Of a stretch of DNA of 64,000 nucleotides, positions 27,955 to 60,400 are shown piece after piece. The DNA is from a virus. Taxonomy: Duplodnaviria > Caudoviricetes. Every line of letters starts with the position of its first letter. Within the stretch, counting starts at the first letter, position 1. A model generated the notes under the pieces. That model saw only the letters and a program-made list of their open reading frames with translations. It did no database searches and was not told the DNA's origin. The stretch lies in IMG/VR virus record IMGVR_UViG_3300010163_000006, positions 64,001 to 128,000 of that record; one strand, 5' to 3'. A program made the translations under genes and the position numbers.

Positions 27955-28662
27955 TTAATGGGTTTTCTGTTGTTGTTTCTTTTTCGCACGTTTCTTCTGT
28001 TTTCGCGACCTGGTTTTCTTCCGTCGTTTCTTCTTCGGAGGATTCTTCTGTTGTCCCATACCGTCGTGTTCTACTGCCGTTTCATCTGTTTTGAGATTTT
28101 CTCCATTTGTCTCGGGTTGATCTGCTTCTGTGTTTTCTCCCTCTATTTTATTGATTTCTCTAACGAGGTTATCTTGCGTTTTATAGATAAGAGACATTGC
28201 GTCGTTTTCAATACAATTAAATTGTTTCGTAAGCTCTACTGTAAAACGAGATATCTCAGTATCGGTTAACGGTCGATTGTTCAGTTTAAAAGAACCCAGG
28301 ATGACGGCCTGAATATGTGCCTTCATATCAACCGTGTTAAAATCAGGAGGACTGGGGTCCTCGTTTGACGAATCGTCGGATGACACATCATCATCCTCTG
28401 CATCAGGTGTGTCTGTTGTTGCAGGAGGAGTTGTGATGTTCTCGTTGTTGTTAGCAGCCTTTGCAGCTCTCTTTGCAGCAATTGCTGCAAATCCATGCTT
28501 AGCAGACTTACAAGCTGTTGTTGCCATTGCTGTTGCAGCAATACCAGTGATAGCACTACCAATTCCAACAGCGGCAACGGGGTTCTTCTTGGCTACCTTT
28601 GACGCTTTCTTAACGATTCTCTTAGAGGACTTGTTAATCTTCTTAACAAATGTCTTTTTCAT
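27955..28662 (-). CDS. Hypothetical protein with basic termini, a hydrophobic segment and an acidic linker
   Basis: AAGGAG RBS before ATG 28662; K-rich N- and C-termini. Confidence 0.6.
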   Translation of the reverse strand: MKKTFVKKINKSSKRIVKKASKVAKKNPVAAVGIGSAITGIAATAMATTACKSAKHGFAAIAAKRAAKAANNNENITTPPATTDTPDAEDDDVSSDDSSNEDPSPPDFNTVDMKAHIQAVILGSFKLNNRPLTDTEISRFTVELTKQFNCIENDAMSLIYKTQDNLVREINKIEGENTEADQPETNGENLKTDETAVEHDGMGQQKNPPKKKRRKKTRSRKQKKRAKKKQQQKTH

Positions 28663-28729
28663 AAGTATTCTCCTTCTCCCTCTATATGTATGAGGGTATA
28701 AAATTATTTGAATAATTTGAAACACTATA

Positions 28730-28790
28730 TTTCTTTTTATTCAATATAATAATATATATTTAGAGGATTGAAATAATAGGTGGTAGCATA
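28730..28790 (-). repeat. 61-bp dispersed promoter-region repeat, copy 1
   Basis: tttctttttattca[a/c]tataataatatatatttagaggattgaaataataggtggtagcata; 60/61 identical to 61827-61887. Confidence 0.9.
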
Positions 28791-28834
28791 GAAAATATAC
28801 TGTATAATGGGGAGGGATATCCCTCCCCATTAAA

Positions 28835-29074
28835 TTAGTCTTTCTCAAAAGCCAATGCATCATATTCATTGGCTACATCTACTACGGCATTACTCATTAT
28901 TTTATCATGGGATTCAATAATCCCGTTTATAATTGTTTGTGACTCCGGAGATGATTCCAATAATCTCTTTTTAACACGATCAAGATTACCAGCTTCTTGA
29001 TCGTATATTGTTACAAATAATACAGCAAGATTGTTTATTTCTTCATTTGTTAATTCTGTATTCATACACTTCAC
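28835..29074 (-). CDS. Hypothetical protein
   Basis: 79-aa ORF with AAGAGGTG RBS; start may be 29068. Confidence 0.55.
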   Translation of the reverse strand: MKCMNTELTNEEINNLAVLFVTIYDQEAGNLDRVKKRLLESSPESQTIINGIIESHDKIMSNAVVDVANEYDALAFEKD

Positions 29075-29088
29075 CTCTTTTACTTTAC

Positions 29089-29122
29089 AAAAAATAATCC
29101 CCCAAATATTTGGGGGATTATT
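29089..29122 (-). terminator. Intrinsic terminator closing pentamer array 1
   Basis: aataatcccccaaa-ta-tttgggggattatt hairpin; the plus-strand A-tract is a U-tract on minus. Confidence 0.8.
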
Positions 29123-29130
29123 GTCTCTTC

Positions 29131-29586
29131 ACCAAGCATCACAAGACTGAACCAAGCCTCACCATGACAGAACTAAAATAAACTATACTTAGCTTCACCA
29201 TCACTCTACATGACGTTGCCTCACCAGTACCAAACAACACAATACCTGACAATATCATACCATGACGATACTTGGCTGAACCATCACGTTAATATACCCG
29301 ACACCACTCAACTTTACCAATACACCACCCACTTCAATACACCTGACAACACTCTACCAATACATGACGGGACTGAACGATGCCACACCAACACATTGCA
29401 TCACCCCACGAAACATGACAAAGCCTTACATTCACTTAACTCTGCAACACTATGCGTAACCTTAACGTTACTGTGCAACTCACAGCTATGCCTTTACTGA
29501 ACATCAGGTCATGTAATACTATATACATACCATCACATGACCTGACTACACCACACTTTAATACGCCACACTTCACTTTACCATGG
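29131..29586 (-). ncRNA. Pentamer-periodic array 1, (NN-NGY)n; candidate guide-RNA array
   Basis: Plus strand parses as accaa gcatc acaag actga accaa gcctc ACCATG acaga actaa aataa actat actta gcttc ACCATC actct acatg acgtt gcctc ACCAGT...; begins about 20 nt after the RAMP stop codon and ends at a terminator. Confidence 0.75.
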
Positions 29587-29605
29587 CTGTGATATTTGTG
29601 GCTGA

Positions 29606-30238
29606 TTAGTGTTCTGAAGCATTACCCCCGATTACATTTCCGTCGGCATCAAGCTCTTCCCAGACAAATTTACCCTTTCCACTGTTGCGCCACTGACCCG
29701 TTCCGTGGTAGAATCCATAGTCCAACCATTCACGAACGAGTGTTTCATCTTCATCCACCATACACAGTACGGTGAATTCGTTAGTGGAGCCGACCGGCAC
29801 GGTTTCTGAACATGCCAGTGAAACACGTTCACCCTGTGGTGTGTTGGCTCTTAACGGTCTCTGACACAACGTTATCTCACCATTAACGTTGATGACGGAT
29901 TTGCGTTCCTTGATAAAGATCAGACCGTCTATCTGTTTCTTAAACGCTTTGATCTTTGATGAAGCGGTACCTTTAACCTTTTTGAGGAAACTACAGGTCT
30001 CCTTGAAGTAACCTCGCCACTGATAGTCGTAAATGATCAGATTTCCGTCATCGTCTCTCGGGAATACGGTTGTTCCCTTTTCAACAGTCGGATCAACACC
30101 GACAGATGCTACCTCATCATCGATTGTGGTTGCATCGGGTGACTTCGAAGCGATGTAGCTTCTGTAGATTTCCTGGTCATTGGTTGCTGTGCCAAGCAGC
30201 TCCTCGATAAATGTTACGCGTACTCTGATTTCTTTCAT
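29606..30238 (-). CDS. Stand-alone Cas7/RAMP-superfamily protein
   Basis: N-terminal strand IRVRVTFIEELLG; IYDYQWRGYFKE (Cas7-like iPgss.kG.lr position); ETVPVGS; C-terminal glycine-rich loop GTGQWRNSGKGKF; AAAGGAGGT RBS before ATG 30238. Confidence 0.75.
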   Translation of the reverse strand: MKEIRVRVTFIEELLGTATNDQEIYRSYIASKSPDATTIDDEVASVGVDPTVEKGTTVFPRDDDGNLIIYDYQWRGYFKETCSFLKKVKGTASSKIKAFKKQIDGLIFIKERKSVINVNGEITLCQRPLRANTPQGERVSLACSETVPVGSTNEFTVLCMVDEDETLVREWLDYGFYHGTGQWRNSGKGKFVWEELDADGNVIGGNASEH

Positions 30239-30341
30239 AGAAATCAACCTCCTTTAGATAAATAATAAGTAGTTTATGGATATCTCATTTCTGATATATC
30301 CATAATAATTAAATATATTTCAAAAATAAGAAAAATAGAAA

Positions 30342-30361
30342 GTCCGGGGATAATCCCCGGA
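30342..30361 (-). terminator. Terminator-like hairpin after the 30378 gene
   Basis: ccggggat-a-atccccgg stem with an A-rich left flank. Confidence 0.65.
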
Positions 30362-30377
30362 CATGAAATTCTTCTAT

Positions 30378-30764
30378 TTATGGAGCCGGATATATGACAA
30401 AAGTTTTCAGACCTTTGATCTTGAACCCGCCGTCTTCTGTCGGTTCTCCGAACACTCTTGGGACGGCAATCAATTTGGGATTGTTTGACACAAATTCCTT
30501 GATCATTTTGTCAGATTGGTCAAATTCAACATCTATCCACCCACCAACAAATCCCATATCATAACCAGTTATCACTCCTATGATATCATTTATATCAACT
30601 CTCAAATGTAAAATATCTACTGTTTTACAGTCTGTTCCCTTCACAACCTTCATACCAACCAAACCATGTGTAGATATATGTTTGTATAAGTCTTTAAATG
30701 ATAGACATTCGTTGATTCTGACGGGAATGGTTTTCCTGATCTTCTTAGGGATCCTGACTTTCAT
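30378..30764 (-). CDS. Hypothetical protein between the RAMP gene and array 2
   Basis: AAAGGAG RBS before ATG 30764; track ORF starts at 30785. Confidence 0.6.
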   Translation of the reverse strand: MKVRIPKKIRKTIPVRINECLSFKDLYKHISTHGLVGMKVVKGTDCKTVDILHLRVDINDIIGVITGYDMGFVGGWIDVEFDQSDKMIKEFVSNNPKLIAVPRVFGEPTEDGGFKIKGLKTFVIYPAP

Positions 30765-30790
30765 TAATTTATCACTCCTTTCCATATAAT

Positions 30791-30829
30791 AAAAAATAAC
30801 CCCCGTAAGGTGGGAGGAGGTTATTTTTC
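30791..30829 (-). terminator. Terminator-like hairpin closing pentamer array 2
   Basis: aaaaaataacc-ccc...ggaggttattttt imperfect stem flanked by A/T tracts. Confidence 0.6.
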
Positions 30830-30845
30830 TTTAAGATATGTCGTT

Positions 30846-32372
30846 ACCATTACTCTACAAGACCCAACTTTGATGAACCATTACTGAACCAAACCGCGCT
30901 TTGCCTTACAACACTTGGCATCGCCGCACCGTAACACCGCTATACTGGGCTGAACTATGCCTTTACGCAACAGCACTATTCGACGCTACACCATAACTTC
31001 ACAATACCCACGCGGTACAATGCGTTACAGGACATAGCCTTTACTGGTACCATTCGACACCTTACCTGCACATGACATCGCCACCTATCACAACACAACA
31101 CCAATACAGAACAATACCGAACGCCACACTACCTTTACGATACATACGAACACGAAGCTCAATATTACTATACTTAACATTACCCGTTACGTGACCATGC
31201 GGCACCTGACCTTACCAAAACATTACTCTACGCCTCCTGGCTTTACCCAAACATTACGCTCGCAGCATTACTGCACCATCACAGCACCATACGTAAACTG
31301 ACTATACATTACCGATACAATACGAATCAGTACGGAACATCACGGAACCCATTACGTAACGTAACGCCACTTGACCGAACTGCACCCTCACAAAACTATC
31401 CCATACTGTACCATTAATGTACACTGCGTGACTAAACACGACTCTACCTGTACTTTACTATGAGCAACGTATCTCCGCTCCGCTTTACCTTTACTAAGCA
31501 TTACCTGGTATTGCTTAACCTTGCCTATACGATACCAAGCGTGGCATTTCTTCACCGCACCGTTTACTCTACATTACTCGACTTCACTCCAACATTACCC
31601 TCACATGGCATCATAAGACCACACTTTACCTTTACGACACCTCACAGAACAGGACCAAACCATGCCTGAACATTACCTTTAGATCACAATACGCGACGAT
31701 ACTTCACCTTACCATTACCAGAGAAAACGTCACCATACCGATACCGCAACCATGCTTCACCTTACTTAACCCTTACTTGGCTTGGCGGAACAAAACTATA
31801 CTATACCGTTACATAATCATACCGCACCCGGCCTTACCCATAACATCACAAAACTTTTCTGTACACTTCCTTTGCGGAAACTATGCCCGACACAGCATCA
31901 CGACACTATACCGGAACGCCACGTCACTCTACGGTACACCACCATGCTATACCAGCACAGTGCATTACTTGACATTGCTTTACCTTACCAATGCTGTACA
32001 TCACAATACCATTACGAAACAATACCAGACTGCAACTCACCGCGCATCACCTATGCTAAACATTACGTTCAAGACCCCGCTTTACTGAACCTTGACAAAA
32101 CCAAACAGTGCCTCACCGAAGCATTACTTGACATTGCTTGACCATACTTCACATCACCTTTACTGAACGTTATGAGACAAAGCGTCACCTCACAGCACCA
32201 TTACTTGGCAAAACTTCACGTGACACGACGATACTTCACCTTACCATTACCCAACATGACAATATGACACCATGCGTTGCCGTTAGCCATACATAACACA
32301 ACATGCCCTCACAACGCAATACCTTTACAGAACATAAAAGCTCAGCACTACACTTCACCGATACGTCACATA
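30846..32372 (-). ncRNA. Pentamer-periodic array 2, (NN-NGY)n; candidate guide-RNA array
   Basis: Plus strand ACCATT actct acaag accca acttt gatga ACCATT actga accaa accgc gcttt gcctt acaac acttg gcatc gccgc ACCGTA...; about 1.5 kb, starting right after the stop codon of the 32373 gene. Confidence 0.75.
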
Positions 32373-33677
32373 TTATTGTTGAGATAAAATGTCATAATAT
32401 CGAGAGACGTCAAATCCCAGTTTGTTTAGCTTGTCTATAAATTCCTTATAAGACTTCCGACCCAGATTTCGTATCTTCATTATATCTTCAGGAGCAGTAG
32501 ATAATATATCACCAATTGTACGGATTCCTCCGCATTTCAGGGAATTGAAAGTCCTGACACTTAAGTCGATTAAATCTATATCCGTATCCTCTGTAAATTC
32601 AGGTATCTTCCCATCAACATCGAGAGAAATTTCTTGTGTTCGCAGTACCCCATACTTAAGAATCATCAACGCTCTTTTGTCCGCGATAATAGCGTTCGAT
32701 ATTTCTTCAACTGATTGTCTGGTATCAATACCCAAAATATGGATCAGAAATTCGACAGTCTCGACGTCACAAAGGTTGTCATCGAGATATCTCATGTTGT
32801 ATATGTTTTCATACACACGTCTACCCAAGCGTGTAGAATTCTTTTCAACAAGATGCCGCAGCTTGTTTTTGTGTTCTCCATAAACGATAGTCCTTAGTGC
32901 TCGGGCTTCTATTTGTCTTATTCTATCCGGAGTAAGATTGTATTCATTTGCTATCTCTGTCAGAGTCATGTGATCAATAAACCTCTTGTCAAGTATATCA
33001 ATATCTCTAATTTGTCTAATTGATCTTTGAATAAAGAGCTCGATATCTGTAGTATCTGTTCCGATAATTTCAAGATCATCTGAAAAGAAATCCATACCGT
33101 CTACTGCTGCAGCGATTAAGTTCCATGGATAGAGACTATATTGCACGGGGTATATGTTGGATATCATCTTTTCCATCCGTGTGAAATAAGGATTCTCTTT
33201 GTAATGGTAGATCTTTGCACAAGCGATTATGTTCGCAAGTTCACGCACGGTCTTGTAGATGTGGTTGTTATTTATCACCATCTCAAGTAGGTCTGGTTCT
33301 AACCATAATCGTGAGATTGTGACGTCGGGAGAAAACTTCGATAAACGGATATCCTCAGTTTTCCAGAACTTTGATTTCAGCTTATCGGTAGGGATACTAA
33401 CCCTTTGGGATACTAATGTCATTCCTGTATGTTCACTAATTGATTTCGGAGAAACTCCTAATATATTCCTATAACCAAAAGCGATTAATGTGTCGTCACC
33501 GATGGTTGACAAAAGATCGTCAATCTTTTTCATGAGTTTATCCTCATTGATTTCTTCAATATCATTCAGAGACAATCCCGGGAGAAATCCCTTCTCGATC
33601 AATCTCGTTATGATTGTTTTCACATCGACACCGGCTTCGAATACGTGGTTGTTAATAACTAATTCGCTAAACTTCAT
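32373..33677 (-). CDS. Sigma70 region-4 HTH + RNA polymerase alpha-CTD fusion protein (putative transcription regulator)
   Basis: ILDKRFIDHMTLTEIANEYNLTPDRIRQIEARALR (sigma region 4) and IDLIDLSVRTFNSLKCGGIRTIGDI...IMKIRNLGRKSYKEF (alpha-CTD). Confidence 0.85.
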   Translation of the reverse strand: MKFSELVINNHVFEAGVDVKTIITRLIEKGFLPGLSLNDIEEINEDKLMKKIDDLLSTIGDDTLIAFGYRNILGVSPKSISEHTGMTLVSQRVSIPTDKLKSKFWKTEDIRLSKFSPDVTISRLWLEPDLLEMVINNNHIYKTVRELANIIACAKIYHYKENPYFTRMEKMISNIYPVQYSLYPWNLIAAAVDGMDFFSDDLEIIGTDTTDIELFIQRSIRQIRDIDILDKRFIDHMTLTEIANEYNLTPDRIRQIEARALRTIVYGEHKNKLRHLVEKNSTRLGRRVYENIYNMRYLDDNLCDVETVEFLIHILGIDTRQSVEEISNAIIADKRALMILKYGVLRTQEISLDVDGKIPEFTEDTDIDLIDLSVRTFNSLKCGGIRTIGDILSTAPEDIMKIRNLGRKSYKEFIDKLNKLGFDVSRYYDILSQQ

Positions 33678-33784: not shown

Positions 33785-33908
33785 ATAAAATATAAATAAT
33801 AACCAGCATAATAGAAAATGAAAAAGAAAAATGGAGCCGGGCATTATGCCCGGCGTTAGAGAAAGAATTAGTAGGATAAATTTGTTCCGTAGTTTGTAGA
33901 ACACGGAG

Positions 33909-34395: not shown

Positions 34396-34473
34396 TGGTG
34401 GGATATGCTGGATTCGAACCAGCGTCATAACGCCGTGCACAACGTATACTTTTCCCCGCTAAAATAATATCCC
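34396..34473 (-). tRNA. Degenerate tRNA, anticodon undetermined
   Basis: Perfect acceptor GGGATAT/ATATCCC, T-arm GCTGG-TTCGAAT-CCAGC and CCA, but irregular anticodon arm. Confidence 0.55.
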
Positions 34474-48926: not shown

Positions 48927-51900
48927 ATGTTTTACCAAGAAGCTGCAGTAGATCTTTCACGCGGTACGAATTTCTTACCTCAAAGGACGAGATACCGTTT
49001 ACCGATGCAGAAGGCTGATACTTCGATATATTTGTTGTCAAACTCATTCGAATATGATATCGAAATGATAAAAAATATGCCAACCCCTAAATTGGATTAT
49101 AAGAATATTATAATTCCGTATCGTGTAATGGATAAGATCGGTGTTAAACCATTTCGATACAATAGTTCCATGAACGACTTCAATCGCAAAGTTTCTTATA
49201 TTCTCAAAAAGAAACTTATGCCGAATGTTAATCCATTGAGATTCCCTTATCCGAAAACAATCAAGGATAATCTTTACATATCAATGTCAGAGATTATCCC
49301 GATGGTCACACCATTCATGAGAACGTTTTCGAAACAATACATCCAAGAACACATCTTTGATTTGTTTAACAAAGTGATGGGCTTCTTTAATTTTTCAAAA
49401 AATAAGATTCTCATTATCGACATCCGGCATTACAAGATCTATCAAACATTAACTCTCGATACTTTCATGTCAGACCTGATAAATGCATTATTGACTGCAT
49501 ATATCATGAATGATCCCGCTAAGATCAAGAAGCTTGATTATGTAATAATCTTTAGAGCCCCTGATGCTGATTACAAGTTTGATTTATCGTTGTTCGAGAA
49601 ACGCGATGTTCAACGGATGAAAGCTATGTTACGAAAAATAGGAGTACCTTCTGAAATGACTGCAACTACATCCGAAGAAGCGGGTGAAAGTTTTGATTCA
49701 TTTACGAAGAACTCCGAACCAGAATTACCGGATCTTGCTAATATTAATGACGATGCTGATGATTCGGAAGATAAACCTGAGGTAGACGAAGAGGTTAAAA
49801 ACCTTCAAAAAGTGAATAACAATGAGACTAAATCAATCAAAGACACGATCAGTCAATTGTCTACTCAGTATGGTAAGGTAAAAAACGATGACAAAGCACC
49901 TGATGAAAATCGGGAATTATATAATGTCAAAACAATGGATATCAACGCCCAGTTGATAAAACGGATTAATCCTGCAACCGAAGTTGTTTCGAATTATAAG
50001 AAACTCTCTGATTCAATGGTTGCTGGTGGTTCTAATACCGTTGAAAAAGACATAATGAAAGATGCTGCAAAGACGATGTCTTCGGAAGTTGAACCGTCGA
50101 ATGTAAAAACTGTTATGAATGCAACATCATCAGCACGAGAGCGTGAGATACGAGAAAAACTTGGTCAGGTCAAATTGAACAATGTAACATTCAACACATT
50201 GACATCAATTACAGATGTTCCTAAACCTAAGCCGGTCAGACCAAGAAATCTCACAACCACAAATCCAGGAGCTCTTCATGGTTCATCGTTTGCACACATT
50301 GCAGAAGAGTACGAAGACAAACTACTCGACAGAGACATAGTTGCAACATTCATGAATTTCTCCAAACTTCCGGATGGTTTCTATGTTACCAACGTTGAAG
50401 TGACAGACATTTCAACGGTAACAAGTTTGATGAATAACTGGAAGGTTACACTTAAAAACAAAGAATCTGATCGTCAATCAATTATAAACATCAGAGTCCC
50501 CCGAGTTATCAATGGTCGATTCTATAACAACGGTGTTTGGTACAACATCGGAAAACAAGACTTCCCAATACCGATTCTGAAAATCAACAAGAAAACTGTT
50601 ATGTTGACAAGTAACTATAACAAAATTACCTGCACAAGATACGACACAAGATCGCTTGTTGACCTTGGTATGTTGGTTAAAGTAATCGATAAATTGACTG
50701 ATGATAATGGAAAAAATAAATATGTAAGAGTTGGTAATTCTTCCAATACCAATTCCCGATATGTATCGACAATTGAGTACGATGAGTATGCAAGGAAGTG
50801 GGTTCATTTCATTAACAAGGAAGCTAATTTACAAATATATTTTAACCGTTCACAATGTGACAAGGCATATTCGTTTGTTACTGTACAACCAAATGAGTTC
50901 TGTTGTGGAATGATAAATCAAGTTCCTATTATCCTGAATACCGATACTGGATTAACAAGAGACGGTAACACTATAACGGATACCATATTAAAGACCTTAC
51001 CGGAAGACATAAGGAATGCATATCGTAAACAGAAACCAGGTAAGATGTCAATGTATTCTGAAATCACTATAGGAGTTACAATTCCCCTTGGAGTTGCTAT
51101 TGCTGCATGGGAAGGAATGGGTTCTTTATTAAAGAAGAGCGGTGCAAAATATCAGTATGTTGATAAGAACTTTGATGACATACGATACTTCGTTATGCCA
51201 TTTAAAGATAAGAATCTTGCGATCGAAAGCTCCGTTGCGAACCAGTTGATCTTCAACGGTTTCTATCGAATTAATACGAAATCATACATGGCATCGGAAT
51301 TCGAAACACCGATTATGAATTCAAATTCGATCTATGTTGATATATTCAACCAGTTATTCTTCAAGCAATATTCACAGCTTACAACGTTTATCACATATTA
51401 TAATTTCTTCGTTGATGCAATAACGGCGGATGTATGTGATCACTATCATATTCCAAATGACATTGCCGGAATGTTGATATATGCCTCTAATCTGTTGGCT
51501 GATAACAATCATACTTCAGAAAACAATGCTGCATTGTACAGACTACGCTCATCGGAAATTATTCCGGCCATCATACATTACAGATTAGCGTTTGCAATAT
51601 CAAAATACAACAATAGTGTCGGATCCAAAACAAGAGGGCATTCAATCGCATTCAACCCGAATGAAGTAATGAATGAATTGTTAGCGGTTAATAATGTAGA
51701 GCCGATGTCTTCATTAAATCCTATAAATGAATTACATGCCAGAGAGAATGTAACAAAGAAAGGCTTCAAGGGAGTTAACTCAGATCGTTCATACACACAG
51801 GACAAACGTACCTATGAGGATTCCATGATTGGAAAGATGGCATTATCATCTCCTAATAATGGAACCGTAGGCGTTACACGTCAGCTCGTTGCGGATCCAA

Positions 51901-53198
51901 AGATTGAATCTGTTCGTGGTTATACATCAACAGATGGCCCTGAATCCGATTTCAATGATCTCCAATTGGCATCTTTCTCGGAATTACTCACACCGGGAAC
52001 AGTCACCAGAGACGATGCTATCCGAACTGCAATCGCAACATCCCAAACATCGCACATCGTATCAACCGAAGGCGCTCAACCAGTATTGGTATCCAATGGT
52101 GTTGATGAGATTGTTCCTGCGTATTTGACGGAGGAATTTTCGTATGTTGCGAGAGAAGATGGTGAAGTAATCGACATGAATGAGGATTACATCATTATCC
52201 AATACAAGAGTGGAAAAAAGAAAGCGATTAATATCAATCACAAACAATCATTCAATTCTGGCTCAGGTTTCTTCGTTGATAACAAACTCACATCTAATGT
52301 TGAGATGGGTGACAAGTTCAAAGAAGGAGATATCCTTGCATATCATGAGAAGTATTTCTCAAAGGATTGTGATGGTATTGTCAGAATGAACATAGGACCT
52401 CTTGCAAAGGTTGCATTCGCTGGATTGTATTCAACATATGAAGATGCTGGTCTTATCACAACCAAGATGTCTAAGAAACTTGGCACAAAGTATTCAATGA
52501 AACAACAAATCAAAATCAATGCAATGGATGATGTAGAAAGTATCGTCAAGATTGGTGATGAGGTTGAGGTCGGTGACCCATTAGTTGTATTCGGCATGGG
52601 TGGTACAGGAGATAAGGCAGTAGACAATTTCCTTAAATCATTTGGTAAGGATTCATCTGATGATGTCTTAAACAAAGCAAAGAGGGTAATTAAAGCCAAG
52701 AATGCAGGAACTGTTGTTGACGTCAAAATGTATACGACCAAGAGTATGGATAAACTGTCACCATCATTATTCGATATCTTTGATAAGTATTTCAAAGATA
52801 ACGTTAAACGTCGTAAAATATTGGACAAACATGACAAAACTAATTCCGTGTATAAAATGGATACGTTGTATTCATTACCAACAGAACCTCTCAAGGGTAC
52901 AACGATCAAGGGTATAACATGTGATGTGTTGGTTGAGATATTCATCGAACATGGTGATGAAGCATCTATTGGTGACAAGCTGGCCATCTATGGTGCATCA
53001 AAACAGGTTCTTTCGGAAGTAATACCTGAAGGACTGGAACCGTACTCCGAAACACGACCCGAAGAAGAAGTAAGTATCTTCGTTGCTCCGAGCTGTATCT
53101 TGAAGAGAATGATCCCATCACTCATTATCACTGCCTCGGCGAACAAAGTACTTGTCGAGCTAAAACGCAAAGTGAAGGAACTGTGGGAACAAGGATAA
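48927..53198 (+). CDS. Phage multisubunit RNA polymerase beta-like subunit (probably virion RNAP)
   Basis: beta motifs LNPINELH, SSPNNGTVG, DDAIRTAIATSQTSH, YEDAGLIT, IGDKLAIYGASKQV; long N-terminal extension beginning MFYQEA. Confidence 0.88.
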   Translation: MFYQEAAVDLSRGTNFLPQRTRYRLPMQKADTSIYLLSNSFEYDIEMIKNMPTPKLDYKNIIIPYRVMDKIGVKPFRYNSSMNDFNRKVSYILKKKLMPNVNPLRFPYPKTIKDNLYISMSEIIPMVTPFMRTFSKQYIQEHIFDLFNKVMGFFNFSKNKILIIDIRHYKIYQTLTLDTFMSDLINALLTAYIMNDPAKIKKLDYVIIFRAPDADYKFDLSLFEKRDVQRMKAMLRKIGVPSEMTATTSEEAGESFDSFTKNSEPELPDLANINDDADDSEDKPEVDEEVKNLQKVNNNETKSIKDTISQLSTQYGKVKNDDKAPDENRELYNVKTMDINAQLIKRINPATEVVSNYKKLSDSMVAGGSNTVEKDIMKDAAKTMSSEVEPSNVKTVMNATSSAREREIREKLGQVKLNNVTFNTLTSITDVPKPKPVRPRNLTTTNPGALHGSSFAHIAEEYEDKLLDRDIVATFMNFSKLPDGFYVTNVEVTDISTVTSLMNNWKVTLKNKESDRQSIINIRVPRVINGRFYNNGVWYNIGKQDFPIPILKINKKTVMLTSNYNKITCTRYDTRSLVDLGMLVKVIDKLTDDNGKNKYVRVGNSSNTNSRYVSTIEYDEYARKWVHFINKEANLQIYFNRSQCDKAYSFVTVQPNEFCCGMINQVPIILNTDTGLTRDGNTITDTILKTLPEDIRNAYRKQKPGKMSMYSEITIGVTIPLGVAIAAWEGMGSLLKKSGAKYQYVDKNFDDIRYFVMPFKDKNLAIESSVANQLIFNGFYRINTKSYMASEFETPIMNSNSIYVDIFNQLFFKQYSQLTTFITYYNFFVDAITADVCDHYHIPNDIAGMLIYASNLLADNNHTSENNAALYRLRSSEIIPAIIHYRLAFAISKYNNSVGSKTRGHSIAFNPNEVMNELLAVNNVEPMSSLNPINELHARENVTKKGFKGVNSDRSYTQDKRTYEDSMIGKMALSSPNNGTVGVTRQLVADPKIESVRGYTSTDGPESDFNDLQLASFSELLTPGTVTRDDAIRTAIATSQTSHIVSTEGAQPVLVSNGVDEIVPAYLTEEFSYVAREDGEVIDMNEDYIIIQYKSGKKKAININHKQSFNSGSGFFVDNKLTSNVEMGDKFKEGDILAYHEKYFSKDCDGIVRMNIGPLAKVAFAGLYSTYEDAGLITTKMSKKLGTKYSMKQQIKINAMDDVESIVKIGDEVEVGDPLVVFGMGGTGDKAVDNFLKSFGKDSSDDVLNKAKRVIKAKNAGTVVDVKMYTTKSMDKLSPSLFDIFDKYFKDNVKRRKILDKHDKTNSVYKMDTLYSLPTEPLKGTTIKGITCDVLVEIFIEHGDEASIGDKLAIYGASKQVLSEVIPEGLEPYSETRPEEEVSIFVAPSCILKRMIPSLIITASANKVLVELKRKVKELWEQG

Positions 53199-54485: not shown

Positions 54486-57400
54486 GTGATTATGAATTAC
54501 AATAAATGGTTCTATAATCAACATAAGTATCTGAAAAACATCCGCGATAACTCTGAGGGTTTTAATGATACTAAGTGGGTTACTATCAACAAGCGTTACC
54601 AAATACTTGACGATATGAAATCCGAATTGCTTTCACAAGGACTATTGGTTCATGGTAACAATACTGGATTTGATAAACTTATTGATTTGATGGGTAGATC
54701 TAATTATACATTCGAAGATATCAATGATTCTTTAATTGATACATACAGGGTTTCATTGCATTTTGCAATGAGTAGAAACCTTGTTAATACTCATGCGGTT
54801 ATGTTTCATTGTACCAATATGGATACCAAGAATGTTACTGCGGAGAAGTTCACTCATTACAGAATAATTGATGCGCCTTTTAATCAATTACACTTTGGAC
54901 ACCGTGATGAGTTCATACGTCAAAAGCTCCAGGAAATGCATAATATCAGTAATGGTAATTATGTTGATATGCCCCGATTTAATTCCACTCAATTCACCAA
55001 GATCCTTGATTTCTCAATCATATGCACAGTCAATGGTTATTTTTGTAACGATTGTAAAGTTGCTATTGATGATAAAGGTTTTAAATTCAAAGTAGGATGG
55101 CCTTATGCTTCGGATGTTGATTTCATTGTATACAAATTGGATCATGGTAGAATGATTTCCAATAACATATCACCAGATTATGTTAAGAAGGGATTGATTC
55201 CTTATGACGTACTTGGTGGTGTTGGTAAAGAGATGCTCGGATTAAAATGCATCATAAATGTGTTTGATCCTTTGTTTATCAAGACAACTTCATCTGTTCC
55301 TAACTTCGGTATATTCACCGAAAAGGGATTGGAGATAAGGAACTTACAAAGAGCCACATCTGATATGATTGATAGATTGTCGTCATCAAATGTGACCGTT
55401 GATGTATATGCCTTGAAATTCTTTCATGAAATACCCAACTTGTATCCCGCTATCAATTATTACGATATAATGGATACAAGGAATGTGTATGACGAAAAGA
55501 GCGAAAGCATTAAAACAACCGAGGGACATAACGTTGTCGCAACACCATCGAAGAACATAAACAAACTTGAAGTATGTACACCACCGATATGTCTTGATCG
55601 AGATGTATCATATTCATTTGATATCATCACAAGGTGTTTATCCATGTATGATGACATGATGTCATATGAAAGTGATTTAATCCGTGTTGGACAAGAATTG
55701 CTATATGGCAACCAAGATTCCTTCATGGATACATTCAAACCTATATTGCAGAAAATCTATTCTGGATTGTTGTCAATGTATAAGATCTATGAACAAGGAA
55801 GCATCATAACTTCATTGATTGAACCAGAACAACTTGGGCTGTTCTCCGACCTTTTGTCAAAAGTCCATAAGATTTCAAACATGACAGACTTCCGTCATTC
55901 TCAGAATTATTCCTTCGATGAATTATACGGAGAAAATTATAGAAACACGGTTAAGACTATAACAGACCCATTCAGGAATACAGCATTACTACCATTCGCA
56001 TGCATGAAATCAATCAAGAACAATTTCTTTGTTGATAACAACACAACTCGATTCAATCGACCAATATCGGAGCAGTGTTTCATTGCACTCCGATACCATA
56101 CAAATGATGGTTGTTGGTTGTTTGATTATCCGGACATCAAACATTTCCATGGGATCGGAAACACATTCTATGTCGATTCGAATCTCAAGGGTGATGAGAT
56201 ATTCAAGTTCTTTGTTCTTTACAGTGATACCGAAGCTCCTGATGAAAAGGATATTGAACATATGGATCTTAATACCGTATTGGATTTTGATTTGTTTTCT
56301 AAGGAAATAGAGAAACATATCGGGATGATTCGTTACTGGGATGCGGAATGTCGGTTGATGAAGTTATCAAAAATCATGTATAAGAAATACAATGATGAGA
56401 CATGTGTTCAAGTATTATCAAAGATTCTTAAACGGAAAATATCCGGAGATAACATTCTCAAATTATATCCTTCTGATATAAACTATGAAGAATCAAATGT
56501 CTCTTCAGATAGTTGGGAATCTTATGATGAAAACACTGAACGAGGTCCTTTCTCAATAAATTTCCTGTTTTATACCCTCTCTTTATTGAATAATAATGAG
56601 GATAAACTCCAATCGTATTTCTATAGATATCTTACTCATAATAAGTATCATAATAGATATACTGATATTGATATCTCGTCCATCATTGACAATGAGAGAT
56701 ATCCCATCAGTTATTCTCAATACACAATATCTCCATCAAGAATCCCCGACAGTTGTGCGAAACCGGATGTAAAGATATTCGCATATTATGGATTACCATT
56801 GATATTGGATTCAAAAGGAAGTAATCTGTATGAACCGTACCGATATGTCTTGAACGTTTATGATCCAGATACTAAGTATCCCATGATATCCGAAAACGAT
56901 ATTGATGGGTCTTTCTATGTTCAATATGACAATATCACAGATTATGCTGGACGGGTTGTTTCTTATCATAACAATATTCAAATCGGACATCTGATGACAT
57001 TATACCTGACAGATCTTTACAACTACATTTCTGAATTACAGACAAATTACAAAACAACATTCAACCAGTCAACCGTGATTGAGTCTGCTATAAACACAAT
57101 GAACGAACGAATTTCAACCATCAGAACACATATACTTGATAACGGACTTGATGATATTGATGGGGTTTCATCTTTTGGTAATGCTGTTGATATCGTTATC
57201 AATGATAATGAATTTATTCGTAAATTGAATGAAATGAAATCATTGATTGATTCAATCGATGTAATCAGGTATAACAATACAAATTCATCAATTCGCGTGT
57301 TCATAAATACGCATGTACTTGGTACGTTAAAACGTGCGTACGTTAATTTTGGTTTCAATAACAATATTAACAAACGTGCACGTATGCTGTACATACACCT

Positions 57401-60400
57401 GAAGAAGATCAATGAACCAATGAATGCATACACATTCAAGAAATGGTTAACTGATATAGATCTTCATACATTAACAAACCTTGATTCATTGGTTTCTAAT
57501 AATGAAAATTATGACATCGGCAACAATGTCTTCAAAATATTGGGTAATGCTTTATCTGCTTATATTGACAATGCTGTCGGTTTACTTAATGAATTGGATT
57601 CATCAATTGAGAGCTTGTCTGGTGATTTCAAGACAGATCATATTACACCCATTGCAACATTATGTGATGATGTAATAAACAAAATCATATTCGATATGTA
57701 CTCAATGAATTCAGTTGAGTATGATGCTTCTATTAAGTATGAATCAAAACCAATGTTCGTGGTTGTAGCTATCCCTGATACACAACACACAAAACCACCG
57801 ATCGGTGTTATAATATCTGGAACACGAAATCTCATATTCCAACCTATCACGCATAAAACCAATAATGGATATATGATAAGATCATTAGCAAACACATGTG
57901 AATATGTGTTCTTCGATGGTACACCATTAACAGGTTTGACAATGACTATACTGGACAAAGATGGTATTGTTATAGGTACACAAAATGTTTCGATGACATT
58001 TAACAGAACATGTTCTACCGCAGATAGAGTGAATGAATTCACCATGATTCCAAATGGAAAAACCACCGCAATTGATTTCGAAAATGGTCATGAATCATTT
58101 GATGTTGTAAATGGTTTGATTGTAAATGAGAAACATGCAGACATGAATTATGAGATGTTGATTGGAAATCATTTCACCCAACTCGATCATGAGATTGAAT
58201 ATGTATTGGAACCAACAACATGGCTACAGGGTTCCATCGATAGAATATACATTGAAAACCAGATGATCAATCGTATGGCAATAACTGATTTTGGTCATAA
58301 GGTATGTTCTAATGTATTCTTTAAACCCGTTCAGGTTATGCATATTCCATTGAATGAGAATGGATCAATTGATTCTGTAAATGGTAAATACTTTGAAGGT
58401 GAGACCATCTATCTCCAAACAAATGATGGTATGACAATATTCCCGGTTGTAATAACCAAAGTCGATCATTCTATAAACAAAGGATTCATTGAAGCTCGTG
58501 TTGACGATTGGAATTCTAAATGGTTTGAAATTACCGATCCAAATATGATTTCTAATTATCTTTTGAATGAGATCGAATGTTCTGTTATTGATGACAACAT
58601 GCGAAACTTCCTTGATGAGTTCTCTGATAGTGATATGCCGATATATTCAAATCCCACCAATCAAGTTATCGACATAAGTAATATCGACAATTGTTACGAC
58701 TTGCCAGGTGATCCAATGTTTGTTTCATCAAACTCAAATATTCTCCATAGAAGATTGAAGTGGATATTCAATGAAGTCGTACCAAATAGATTTATTGATG
58801 ATGACCACAAGAAGTATCGTTTTGTATACATTGCAAATGGATTCATCATGAATGATAATGACGAGATCAAAATCAACATGATCAATCATGATTTCAACAA
58901 TACAACCATACCGGAAAGATATCCTATCTTAAGAAGTGAACCAAACGACCACACAATTTGGGATAGGGAATTGAATCTGTTCCGTGACGAACAATTGCAT
59001 TCTCATATGAGAGAGAACACTTATTATCGCAATTATAACAACGCGATGTATGCATATTCTCAAGCGAAAACAATCCATGAAAAAGAAGTTGCTCTGTTAA
59101 ACGTTGATAAAGAAAAACGGAAAATGCAACGGGAACAAGAATACCAAAAGAGAATGGAACAATATTCCCGTCAACTCGAAACACCGACAACGTGGTATAA
59201 TGTTCATTCATATGAAGCATCACTTGTATACATTTCAAATGGTCGTGCTGATAGATTCTCTCCGAGTTTCGTTTCTAACATAAGAGATGTTGTTTATTCA
59301 AATGAATTAGAAGTGTTCTTATATGATTGGCAACACAAGAAATGGTTAGATCCTTCATCATATGACGTGTCAATCAAAATGGTTGATAATGTTCGTATTG
59401 ATGAAAATGATGACTACACAACAAACCGTGTTCTTCATACATTGACAATCAAACCGAAGGAAGGATTTTCTTTTTCCAATAAGATACTCATTTATTTCTC
59501 ATACGAGAAATCAAATGTATTCAATTCAATTGAGATGAATGAACCAAACTGTTTTGTCCGGTTCAAACCGTTATTATCTATTGATAATGAGATAACGGAT
59601 TACGATCCATATCGTGATATACGTATAAGGAAACACTTCGATGGTTATGAAAAATACAAGGTAGATGGTAGTGATATCCATATTAAGAGAGTAAATCGTA
59701 ACGGTAAATACACAAATACCCCAGTATTCAGAGTATGTGATATGAAGATAACCGACATCAATGGTGAACACACATTTGATGATATCGATAAATTCTTGGT
59801 GCGGACGCCATTCAAGGACATAACAACCACCAGAACATTCCATACTCCGGTATACAACACAAAAATATGTTCGGAGATTGATTCATTCGTTCCCGACAAG
59901 GAAATCAAACTCATATGTATTTCAAATAATGAGATCAATTCATATGATGGTAATATCTCGTCTGTTATGTTCAATGCAACAACCGCGTATGATGATGAAG
60001 GAAACCAAACAATCTTAATTACTAAATCCACATTGCCAAACTATGTTTCTGGTAAGTTCATATGCACAGTATTCCAGGATGACATGTATAACCCTGTAGG
60101 TGGAGTTATAGAAGTAGAAGTATCTTCCATTGAAGATACTGTTTACGAAGGAGACTGGTTGCAGGTTCCATTGTCATACATGAAGTATCGTGAGATTCCT
60201 GAGGAATTCAAAATCATTATGAAAAATCCAACAGAAGGAATCGTTGAAGTTACATTGGAAAATAAGTACATCAAACGTACTGATGACATCATAGACATCG
60301 ATAACAGCAACTTGATGAATCCTTTCGAATACTATTATGACAATAAACACTTTACAAGATTACCTATCTCTGATGTCAGAACTAATTCCAACAACAAACG

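What the first reader, a model, noticed from the sequence alone, without database searches (positions are those of the whole stretch)
30846..32372. Array 2: ~1.5 kb (~290 pentamers) of the same code, attached to a different gene
It has the same RC-NNN grammar and C/A-rich, G-poor plus strand, and is three times longer than array 1. It starts immediately after the stop of the sigma4/alpha-CTD gene and ends at a hairpin near 30791-30829, so it is a separate transcription unit. If the units are guides, this is a library of roughly 40-50 acting in trans with the RAMP protein (inference; counts are approximate, by hand).
Basis: partly seen in the sequence, partly recalled or inferred. Interest (0 to 1): 0.85.

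Follow-up and report, generated by a model that had tools for sequence, protein, structure and literature searches.

The report
Long phage VIPR guide-RNA array
This 1.5-kb stretch is a very long, non-coding array of five-base units that most likely encodes guide RNAs for the phage's own small Cas7-like protein; this CRISPR-related "VIPR" kind of system was first described in 2026 preprints, so it is a new example of a known kind.

Summary
Window 30846-32372 is one of only two 5-nt-periodic regions in the 155.7-kb phage genome. On the minus strand it has about 294 G-Y-N-N-N units. It starts 3 nt after the stop of a sigma-region-4/alpha-CTD gene and ends at an intrinsic terminator.

The 213-aa ORF about 600 nt downstream (29606-30247) has a confident Cas7/Csm3-like fold. 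It aligns over its full length with the characterised Vipr of Escherichia phage SUSP1. In 77 of 80 other genomes, homologues sit next to a same-strand 5-nt array. Arrays of relatives share almost no sequence.

So this is a vrRNA array of a VIPR system (bioRxiv 10.64898/2026.04.26.720920), in the relaxed "YNNNG" form that the preprint lists. It has no tails or ribozymes.

Two details may go beyond the text I could read. First, the array is exceptionally long and is appended to another gene's mRNA. Second, an extra G is spaced regularly every 5-8 units (family-wide mode 6), which divides it into modules of about 31-41 nt.

No target was found, and RNA data could not be obtained. This scan has already found VIPR systems in more than 130 other genomes, including a GY-NNN jumbo phage.

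Verdict: a real feature and a new member of a known kind.

The parts
33796..33824 (-). Promoter-like site upstream of the sigma4/alpha-CTD gene; it follows a terminator at 33836-33854
   Evidence: Consensus scan only. The number of promoter-like sites in the region equals the number in shuffles, so this is weak.
32373..33677 (-). 434-aa gene with Sigma70 region 4 (residues 227-262) and RNA polymerase alpha C-terminal domain (364-418). Array 2 follows its stop codon.
   Evidence: Pfam; PHROG sigma factor. Homologues are rare (21 proteins). The link to arrays is not conserved: none in L009, an upstream array in L010, and a sigma4-like gene 1.3 kb from vipr in L076.
30846..32372 (-). Array 2: about 294 G-Y-N-N-N units, read here as a vrRNA guide array. 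Six-mers carrying an extra G (making GGY) recur every 5-8 units.
   Evidence: There is no Rfam family, and so no hammerhead. A 300-nt piece folds no better than shuffles, z +0.41.
30791..30829 (-). Intrinsic terminator that closes the array 2 unit
   Evidence: Hairpin followed by a T run
30378..30785 (-). Small ORF (128-135 aa) between array 2 and vipr; function unknown; followed by its own terminator at 30342-30362
   Evidence: No Pfam or PHROG hit. The Atlas shows only phage hypothetical clusters. It is not found in other vipr loci.
29606..30247 (-). vipr: Cas7-like minimal RAMP. The likely start is the ATG at 30238, giving 210 aa.
29126..29588 (-). Array 1: about 89 units with the same grammar, directly downstream of vipr
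29093..29122 (-). Intrinsic terminator that closes the vipr-array 1 unit
   Evidence: 13-bp stem followed by a T run

Best explanation
Array 2 is a vrRNA (guide RNA) array of a phage VIPR system.

Proposed mechanism:
- It is transcribed on the minus strand as the 3' extension of the sigma4/alpha-CTD mRNA, up to the terminator at about 30800.
- The G/U-rich, unstructured RNA is coated by the Cas7-like Vipr protein encoded about 600 nt downstream, one protomer per five-base unit.
- The invariant G and the pyrimidine of each unit are held by the protein. The variable bases are presented to pair with double-stranded DNA in a gapped, 3-nt-periodic register. The complex then silences genes of competing mobile elements. 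This step follows the SUSP1 work.

What is shown here: the periodic grammar, the Cas7-like fold, the homology to SUSP1 Vipr, the family-wide protein-array linkage, the hypervariability of arrays, and the gene-array-terminator layout.

What is inferred: transcription, coating by Vipr, DNA targeting, and the following mapping. G = canonical G2. Y = Y3. Positions 3-4 are the pairing NN. Position 5 is a relaxed G1 slot that faces the skipped (wobble) base of the target. The extra G every 5-8 units probably marks guide or module boundaries of about 31-41 nt, which would give roughly 36-59 guides.
For: - Grammar and uniqueness in the genome.
- Vipr fold: pLDDT 92.5. The model has a long beta-hairpin (126-150, thumb-like), a helical insert (25-48) and a C-terminal glycine-rich loop GxGQWRNSGKG. 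Foldseek gives type VII Cas7 and Csm3 at E 2e-8. The family profile hits Cas7 at E 1.2e-4 and Csm4 at E 2.7e-3.
- Direct link to the characterised system: I located the SUSP1 locus, a 195-aa ORF flanked by GGYNN arrays, and its residue numbering matches the structural paper at 9 of the 10 residues checked; position 175 is V in this record where the paper names T175. The hhalign comparison covers 169 columns at E 1.1e-4.
- Residues: W178 and R179 are conserved as W186 and R187. The G1 contacts H17 and D177 are replaced by T20 and Q185. This fits the loss of the first G.
- Linkage: 77 of 80 loci have a G-phased array on the vipr strand.
- Arrays of relatives with 80% and 71% protein identity share only short matches.
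- The preprint lists YNNNG, NNNNG and NNNGG repeats, as well as staggered, tail-less arrays.
- Non-5-nt units are regularly spaced: CV 0.45 against 0.87 when placed at random, P<1e-4. The family-wide mode is 6 units.
- In array 2, positions 3-5 look like in-frame sense codons: +0.22 bit per triplet against 0.05 or less for the other frames. Stop triplets number 3 against 13 expected, and permuting the third base gives P 0.017.
- Paralogous segments differ most at position 5: mismatch rates for positions 1-5 are 0, 0.064, 0.078, 0.116 and 0.173.
Against:
- No target was found under any decoding rule. I searched the genome itself, 0.9 Mb of related loci, IMG/VR, JGI metagenomes and 401 Clostridia genomes.
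- The units are GY-NNN, not GGY-NN. No 3' tail, pseudoknot or ribozyme separates guides, so how a 1.5-kb precursor is divided is unknown.
- The codon-like signal is seen in array 2 only, not in array 1, L004 or L008. Part of the stop depletion seen family-wide could be due to dinucleotide bias.
- The alignment to SUSP1 Vipr has only 22% identity and 56% probability, so the residue mapping is tentative.
Confidence: 0.85

Rival explanations
1. The array encodes decoy or hijacking vrRNAs. These would not serve the phage's own targeting. They would load onto, redirect or titrate the Vipr proteins of competing phages, like the solo or orphan vrRNAs described for satellites and SUSP1-family phages.
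For: [quoted passage not shown] Array 2 is not attached to vipr and sits in a different transcription unit. Arrays appended to unrelated genes occur elsewhere, as in L010.
Against: The phage has its own vipr 600 nt away. Array 1, attached to it, has the same GT-NNN grammar and the same 6-mer punctuation. The grammar (T at position 2) is specific to this phage clade, which suggests a match to its own protein.
Confidence: 0.07
2. The RNA is a non-guide scaffold: a long Vipr-coated filament or a protein sponge whose variable bases carry no targeting information.
For: The array is 1.5 kb long with no tails or processing signals. No target was found. The punctuation period of about 6 units equals the six-subunit turn of the binary filament.
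Against: Positions 3-5 are close to maximally diverse (102 distinct five-mers among 235) and turn over completely between relatives. Array 2 has a codon-like frame signal. In homologous systems these positions have been shown to program targeting.
Confidence: 0.04
3. The array acts at the DNA level, for example as a replication origin, a recombination or packaging site, or bent DNA, and is not an RNA gene.
For: In prophage relatives the vipr gene lies in the replication and recombination module, next to SSB and RusA genes.
Against: The G phase is on the vipr coding strand in essentially all of the 77 loci. The layout is always gene, array, terminator. A 5-bp period with one invariant base matches no known origin architecture. 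The partner protein has an RNA-binding RAMP fold.
Confidence: 0.02
4. The region is protein-coding, for example the plus-strand ORFs 31777-32141.
For: ORFs of 103 and 119 aa exist on the plus strand.
Against: The period is 5, not 3. No minus-strand ORF exceeds 55 aa. The sequence is not conserved in relatives.
Confidence: 0.01

Closest known systems
VIPR systems with relaxed repeats (YNNNG, NNNNG, NNNGG) and staggered, tail-less vrRNA arrays (bioRxiv 10.64898/2026.04.26.720920, methods and Fig. S17-S18 legends)
   Same: A lone small RAMP (Vipr) in a phage, flanked by intergenic pentanucleotide arrays on its own strand. One or two positions are fixed and the rest are hypervariable. There are no CRISPR repeats. 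The YNNNG phase equals the G-Y-N-N-N seen here.
   Different: I could read only the text and legends, so I cannot say which of the seven types this family belongs to. Three things are not mentioned in the text I read: 1.5 kb of uninterrupted units, an array appended to another gene's mRNA, and the regular extra G every 5-8 units.
Type II VIPR of Escherichia phage SUSP1 (Vipr plus vap1 plus four vrRNAs; structures in 10.64898/2026.04.26.720927)
   Same: The protein is homologous over its full length. The G-loop W-R pair that holds G2 and Y3 is conserved. There is one five-base unit per protomer. Arrays occur both upstream and downstream of vipr in the family.
   Different: SUSP1 vrRNAs are discrete RNAs of about 100 nt, each with 9-16 GGY-NN units and a 3' tail of about 40 nt with a pseudoknot. 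Here the units are GY-NNN, there are no tails, and hundreds of units lie in one transcript. The G1-binding residues H17 and D177 are replaced by T and Q. No vap1 homologue was recognised.
Class 1 CRISPR Cas7 backbones (type III Csm3, type VII Cas7) with crRNA
   Same: The RAMP fold has a thumb and a glycine-rich loop. The protein forms a filament on a guide RNA, with periodic base flipping.
   Different: The period is 5 nt rather than 6. There is no repeat-spacer array, no Cas6 or Cas5 handle and no cas operon. The guide information is interleaved inside every unit instead of lying in a contiguous spacer.
Solo or orphan vrRNAs of satellites and VIPR-null phages (bioRxiv 10.64898/2026.10.15.759431)
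   Same: The vrRNA genes are not physically attached to a vipr gene.
   Different: Array 2 lies in a genome that has its own vipr 600 nt away, and it shares that system's grammar.

Membership tests
VIPR system (Vipr + vrRNA) | A small stand-alone RAMP protein with an RRM core, a thumb and a glycine-rich loop, and no second RRM | tested here: met
   The protein has 210-213 aa. The AF2 model has pLDDT 92.5 and shows a beta-hairpin at 126-150 and the C-terminal loop GxGQWRNSGKG. Foldseek hits Cas7 and Csm3 at E 2e-8. The family profile hits Cas7 and Csm4 sequences.
VIPR system (Vipr + vrRNA) | Sequence homology to an experimentally characterised Vipr | tested here: met
   hhalign of the family profile against SUSP1 Vipr (KT454805, 28474-29061 minus strand) gives 169 aligned columns, E 1.1e-4, probability 56% and 22% identity. 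The support is modest. The G-loop motif aligns convincingly.
VIPR system (Vipr + vrRNA) | Tandem pentanucleotide repeats next to vipr, in which fixed positions alternate with hypervariable ones | tested here: met
   The same arrangement is found in 77 of 80 homologous loci. Arrays of relatives are unrelated in sequence.
VIPR system (Vipr + vrRNA) | Canonical GGY/NN unit | tested here: not met
   The unit is G (96%), Y (96%), N, N, N. G precedes GY in only about 20% of five-mers, plus the 6-mers. The preprint explicitly admits YNNNG and NNNNG variants, so this excludes the canonical form but not the class.
VIPR system (Vipr + vrRNA) | vrRNA is expressed and co-purifies with Vipr | not testable with these tools
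VIPR system (Vipr + vrRNA) | The variable bases spell targets in rival mobile elements with a 3-nt period (1-nt skip rule) | tested here: inconclusive
   No target was found. There is indirect support only: a codon-frame signal in array 2 and the greatest divergence at position 5 between paralogous segments.
VIPR system (Vipr + vrRNA) | An accessory vap gene beside vipr | tested here: inconclusive
   The neighbours are a 128-135-aa ORF of unknown function and the sigma4/alpha-CTD gene. Neither is conserved next to vipr in relatives.
Type II VIPR (SUSP1-like) | Discrete vrRNAs of 9-16 repeats, each capped by a conserved structured 3' tail | tested here: not met
   Array 2 contains no recurring conserved element, hairpin or promoter. 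For contrast, see the SUSP1 arrays.
Hammerhead-interspersed VIPR arrays | Hammerhead ribozymes between vrRNAs | tested here: not met
   The Rfam gathering scan of the window finds only tRNAs.
CRISPR array | Direct repeats of 25-40 nt alternating with spacers, and cas genes nearby | tested here: not met
   The period is 5 nt. Tandem Repeats Finder and the repeat scans show no long repeats. There is only one RAMP gene in the genome.

The most novel reading that the evidence does not exclude
In this very large gut-phage Vipr family, the guide format is a distinct one-turn code. Guides are tail-less modules of about 6 units (about 31 nt), each opened by a full GGY made by one extra G. This matches the six-protomer turn of the Vipr filament. 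The relaxed fifth base tracks the wobble base of the target codon. Array 2 would then be a library of about 40-60 codon-phased mini-guides released from the 3' UTR of a transcription-factor mRNA, which would be the largest VIPR arsenal in one transcript.
Probability: 0.25. Interest if true: 0.6.

Novelty: new member of a known kind. Interest (0 to 1): 0.4.

Why it matters
VIPR is a months-old class of RNA-guided DNA recognition proposed to predate CRISPR. Only the canonical GGY-NN, tailed type II form has been studied at the bench.

This locus belongs to a family that is abundant in gut Clostridia phages: more than 5,000 protein clusters at 90% identity and 1,685 representatives at 50%. The family uses a relaxed one- or two-letter scaffold and tail-less arrays with regular punctuation.

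A 294-unit array on a single transcript raises two concrete, testable questions. How are guides delimited without handles? Does the third variable base pair with the target?

The residue substitutions at the G1 pocket (H17 to T, D177 to Q) give a structural hypothesis for how the scaffold code was relaxed.

For genome annotation, the result shows that a simple test, a 5-nt autocorrelation next to a RAMP gene, finds these systems reliably (77 of 80 loci).

Tried and rejected
1. Target search under a 3-nt-periodic reading.
- The 9-unit module, written as an amino-acid-degenerate pattern, gave 0 hits in IMG/VR.
- The same module written as NNx gave 2 hits, which is chance level. One is in a giant-virus MAG record (GVMAG); the other, in a 334-kb record, lies in a gene for a zinc-finger protein of the kind I associate with giant viruses. 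A second apparent 9-unit match in L096 came from my filter dropping a 4-nt unit.
- The 10-unit module as NNx gave 0 hits in IMG/VR.
- In JGI metagenomes it gave 4 hits, about the 2-4 I expected by chance from my rough guess of the collection's size. One is in frame in a RecB/AddA-like helicase (L094) with 6 of 10 third bases matching. This is not significant once AT-richness is allowed for.
- It gave 0 hits in 401 Clostridia genomes with up to 1 mismatch.

2. Self-targeting and cross-targeting. I tested the phage genome and 0.9 Mb of related loci under twelve test settings (nine decoding rules: different base pairs and triplets, target periods 2-5). None exceeded shuffled controls.

3. A 17-nt block shared by array 1 and L002, and nearly shared with L003. 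I first took it for a conserved handle. Half of its letters are fixed by the grammar, it is absent from the closest relatives, and its recurrence in other loci is at chance level. Rejected.

4. GCAT[AG] as a regular separator. Its spacing is irregular.

5. The sigma4/alpha-CTD gene as a dedicated accessory gene. Homologues are rare and mostly have no array.

6. Stop-codon depletion across the family. It is present (ratio 0.70), but it also appears in another register on the antisense strand, so it cannot be separated from dinucleotide bias.

7. Ideas considered before the literature search and then dropped: TRAP-like or Rho-related RNA, T4-primase RC-NNN sites, McrBC R(m)C sites, 7-deazaguanine targets, and a replication origin. 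None explains the RAMP linkage.

8. Calls that failed or found nothing useful.
- The search for related loci with the 68-sequence alignment failed and was repeated with 16 sequences.
- The record behind L096 is not held, so the rest of that contig could not be examined.

Full report
**Observation**

The region 30846-32372 has a strong 5-nt periodicity. Autocorrelation is 0.43, 0.39 and 0.35 at lags 5, 10 and 15. At most other lags it is about 0.18-0.27, with spill-over to lags 11 and 16. Lag 3 gives 0.25, so there is no coding signal.

The window is bases 64001-128000 of a 155,671-bp viral record with direct terminal repeats. A sliding scan of the whole genome finds only two such regions: array 1 at window about 29126-29588, and array 2.

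All neighbouring genes lie on the minus strand. Read on that strand, array 2 segments into 294 units, of which 235 are five-mers and 46 are six-mers. Position 1 is G in 96%. Position 2 is T in 76% and C in 20%. Positions 3-5 are close to maximally diverse, with 102 distinct five-mers among 235.

The array starts 3 nt after the TAA stop of a 434-aa ORF that carries Sigma70 region 4 and the RNA polymerase alpha C-terminal domain. It ends at a hairpin followed by a T run at about 30791-30829. Array 1 has the same layout behind the 213-aa ORF 29606-30247 and ends at a 13-bp-stem terminator.

**The partner protein**

The 213-aa ORF has no Pfam or PHROG match. It nevertheless belongs to a very large family: 5,026 clusters at 90% identity passed E 0.001, and 1,685 representatives at 50% identity.

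A profile of 68 members hits Cas7 of type VII CRISPR (E 1.2e-4) and Csm4 (E 2.7e-3) among PDB sequences. The match lies over the C-terminal glycine-rich loop.

The AlphaFold2 model is confident (pLDDT 92.5, pTM 0.86). Its best Foldseek matches are type VII Cas7, type III Csm3 and Cas7-11, with E from 2e-8, probability 1.00 and TM about 0.55. The model has the expected long beta-hairpin (residues 126-150, thumb-like) and a helical insert (25-48).

**Literature**

A full-text search led to bioRxiv 10.64898/2026.04.26.720920. That preprint describes VIPR systems as follows:
- A minimal phage RAMP (Vipr, about 20 kDa) works with vrRNAs made of pentanucleotide repeats.
- The canonical unit is GGY/NN. 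The preprint lists the alternatives NNNGG, YNNNG and NNNNG.
- The complex recognises double-stranded DNA through the NN bases and skips every third target base.
- Arrays may be tailed (type II), staggered without tails, or interspersed with hammerhead ribozymes.

The companion structural preprint (10.64898/2026.04.26.720927) adds these points:
- One protomer binds one repeat.
- The binary filament has six subunits per turn and the DNA-bound filament has five.
- G1 is read by H17 and D177, and G2 by R138 and W178.
- Y3 is held by E71, M72, R179, C173 and T175.

A third preprint (10.64898/2026.10.15.759431) describes solo and orphan vrRNAs.

**Direct link to the characterised system**

I fetched phage SUSP1 (KT454805). 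A 195-aa ORF at 28474-29061 (minus strand) is flanked by GGYNN arrays with tails. Its residues match the paper's numbering at 9 of the 10 residues checked; position 175 is V in this record where the paper names T175.

A profile-sequence comparison with my family alignment covers 169 columns, with E 1.1e-4, probability 56% and 22% identity. In that alignment:
- W178 and R179 correspond to the invariant W186 and the nearly invariant R187.
- The two G1 contacts, H17 and D177, correspond to T20 and Q185.

This fits a scaffold that kept the G2 and Y3 pockets and lost specificity at G1. Under that reading, the unit here is [n][G][Y][N][N], seen one base out of phase. The mapping is an inference from a weak alignment.

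**Family-wide linkage**

A scan of one genome per prokaryotic species returned 80 loci with homologues at 49-73% identity. Most are in gut Oscillospiraceae, Lachnospiraceae, Ruminococcus and other Clostridia MAGs.

In 77 of the 80, a 5-nt-periodic, G-phased array lies on the vipr strand next to the gene. It is usually downstream and sometimes upstream, and in a few loci a second array lies 1-5 kb away. Array lengths are 170-1280 nt.

Array 2 (1527 nt) and the array of the 80%-identical relative L004 (about 1570 nt) are the longest seen.

G at position 1 is invariant across the family. Position 2 depends on lineage: C, A or T, with T in this jumbo-phage clade.

Arrays of relatives with 80% and 71% protein identity share only a few matches of 18-24 nt with arrays 1 and 2. 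This is the behaviour expected of guide content and not of a structural RNA.

**Architecture of array 2**

- No Rfam family matches, so there is no hammerhead.
- There is no internal promoter or convincing terminator.
- No recurring tail-like element is present.
- A 300-nt piece folds no better than shuffled sequence, z +0.41.

The array is therefore not the tailed type II or the ribozyme form.

Following a lead from other first-reader notes on this genome, I tested the spacing of units that are not 5 nt long. Most of them are six-mers whose extra base is G, which creates a full GGY.
- In array 2 they recur every 5-8 units. The coefficient of variation is 0.45 against 0.87 for random placement; no permutation out of 10,000 was as regular, and the largest gap is 10 units against 21 expected.
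- Across 77 arrays of the family, the gap distribution peaks at 6 units (339 cases), then 5 (287) and 7 (186).

Array 2 is thus divided into modules of about 31-41 nt, 36 of them with five or more units. Whether the modules are the mature guides is unknown. I note, as speculation, that six units is one turn of the binary Vipr filament. The 'staggered' arrays of the preprint may be the same thing, but I could not see the figure.

**Decoding attempts**

In array 2, positions 3-5 resemble in-frame sense codons.
- Using this phage's own codon usage, the score is +0.22 bit per triplet, against 0.05 or less for the five other frames.
- There are 3 stop triplets against 13 expected.
- Permuting only the third base gives P 0.017.
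- Two modules share four units and differ by a synonymous-like change at position 5.

In 31 pairs of internal near-duplicates across the family, the mismatch rates for positions 1-5 are 0, 0.064, 0.078, 0.116 and 0.173.

These results favour a 3-nt-periodic target in which positions 3-4 pair and position 5 faces the wobble (skipped) base. This agrees with the residue mapping above. However, array 1, L004 and L008 do not show the frame signal, and the family-wide stop depletion is confounded by dinucleotide bias.

**Targets**

None was found.
- The phage genome and 0.9 Mb of related loci gave no excess over shuffled guides under twelve test settings.
- Pattern scans of IMG/VR with three patterns from the two longest modules gave 0, 0 and 2 hits.
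- One scan of JGI metagenomes gave 4 hits.
- A scan of 401 Clostridia genomes gave 0 hits.

The hits are at chance level, and inspection showed them to be implausible: one is in a giant-virus MAG record, one lies in a gene for a zinc-finger protein of the kind I associate with giant viruses, one is out of frame, one is between genes with a near-identical copy on a second contig, and one is an in-frame match in a RecB-like helicase that is not significant after allowing for AT-richness. The single-pattern tools are poorly suited to this search, so the negative result is weak.

**The gene in front of array 2**

The sigma4/alpha-CTD fusion is rare: 21 proteins passed the threshold, several of them true RpoA. 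Of the homologous loci examined:
- One has no array (L009).
- One has a 350-nt array upstream, appended to a YunG-like gene (L010).
- One prophage has a sigma4-like gene 1.3 kb from vipr (L076).

The attachment therefore looks lineage-specific. In these jumbo phages, arrays are cassettes appended to the 3' end of various genes. There is no good evidence that the sigma4/alpha-CTD protein is a dedicated VIPR accessory.

**Verdict**

Array 2 is real and non-coding. With about 85% confidence, it is a vrRNA guide array that serves, in trans, the Vipr encoded 600 nt downstream.

The kind has been known since April 2026, and the YNNNG variant is listed in the preprint. This scan has already reported VIPR systems in more than 130 genomes, including a 277-kb jumbo phage with GY-NNN arrays.

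What may be new is descriptive:
- the extreme length of the array;
- its placement in the 3' UTR of another gene;
- the regular extra-G punctuation across a very large gut-phage family;
- a structural rationale for the relaxed scaffold.

Expression, processing, the decoding rule and the targets remain to be shown.

Noticed in passing
window 34396-34473 (-): ARAGORN calls a tRNA with a four-base anticodon (tgca) and cannot name its amino acid. Rfam scores it as a tRNA at 43.6 bits. It lies in a cluster with tRNA-Gln, Glu, Cys and Leu, just upstream of the sigma4/alpha-CTD gene. It could be a frameshift-suppressor-like or otherwise unusual tRNA.
   Followed up: no
window about 29515-29565 (-), inside array 1: A 10-bp inverted repeat (CAGGTCATGT ... 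ACATGACCTG) interrupts the pentamer phase about 60-100 nt after the vipr stop. It might be an attenuator or a processing site. Array 2 has no equivalent.
   Followed up: no
window 29476-29492 (-); L002 1806-1822; L003 about 6674: A 17-nt block (AAAGGCATAGCTGTGAG) is identical between array 1 and a 55%-identical high-GC relative. After allowing for the fixed grammar letters and the number of comparisons, it is not clearly beyond chance.
   Followed up: yes
L010 4385-4760: In another phage contig, a 350-nt GY/GC-NNN array is appended directly to the stop of a YunG-like gene. It is followed by a hairpin, tRNAs and then two sigma4/alpha-CTD genes in tandem. No vipr lies on the 6.7-kb contig.
   Followed up: partly
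L008 5759-7438 and 9189-10645: The 71%-identical relative has a TROVE (Ro60-like) gene 2.5 kb upstream of vipr. A second 214-aa gene lies immediately before vipr and is not detectably similar to it.
   Followed up: no
L004 7083-8637: In the 80%-identical jumbo-phage relative (243-kb contig), a PemK-toxin-domain gene and a Sigma70_r2 gene precede a tRNA cluster and vipr. Its single array is 1.57 kb long and directly follows vipr, whereas here the units are split between two transcription units.
   Followed up: partly
window 48927-53198 (+) and 54486-61406 (+): Two giant ORFs of 1423 and 2306 aa. CheckV rates the 155.7-kb record, which has terminal repeats, as only 58% complete, and relatives are 243-272 kb. 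This suggests a jumbo-phage lineage.
   Followed up: no
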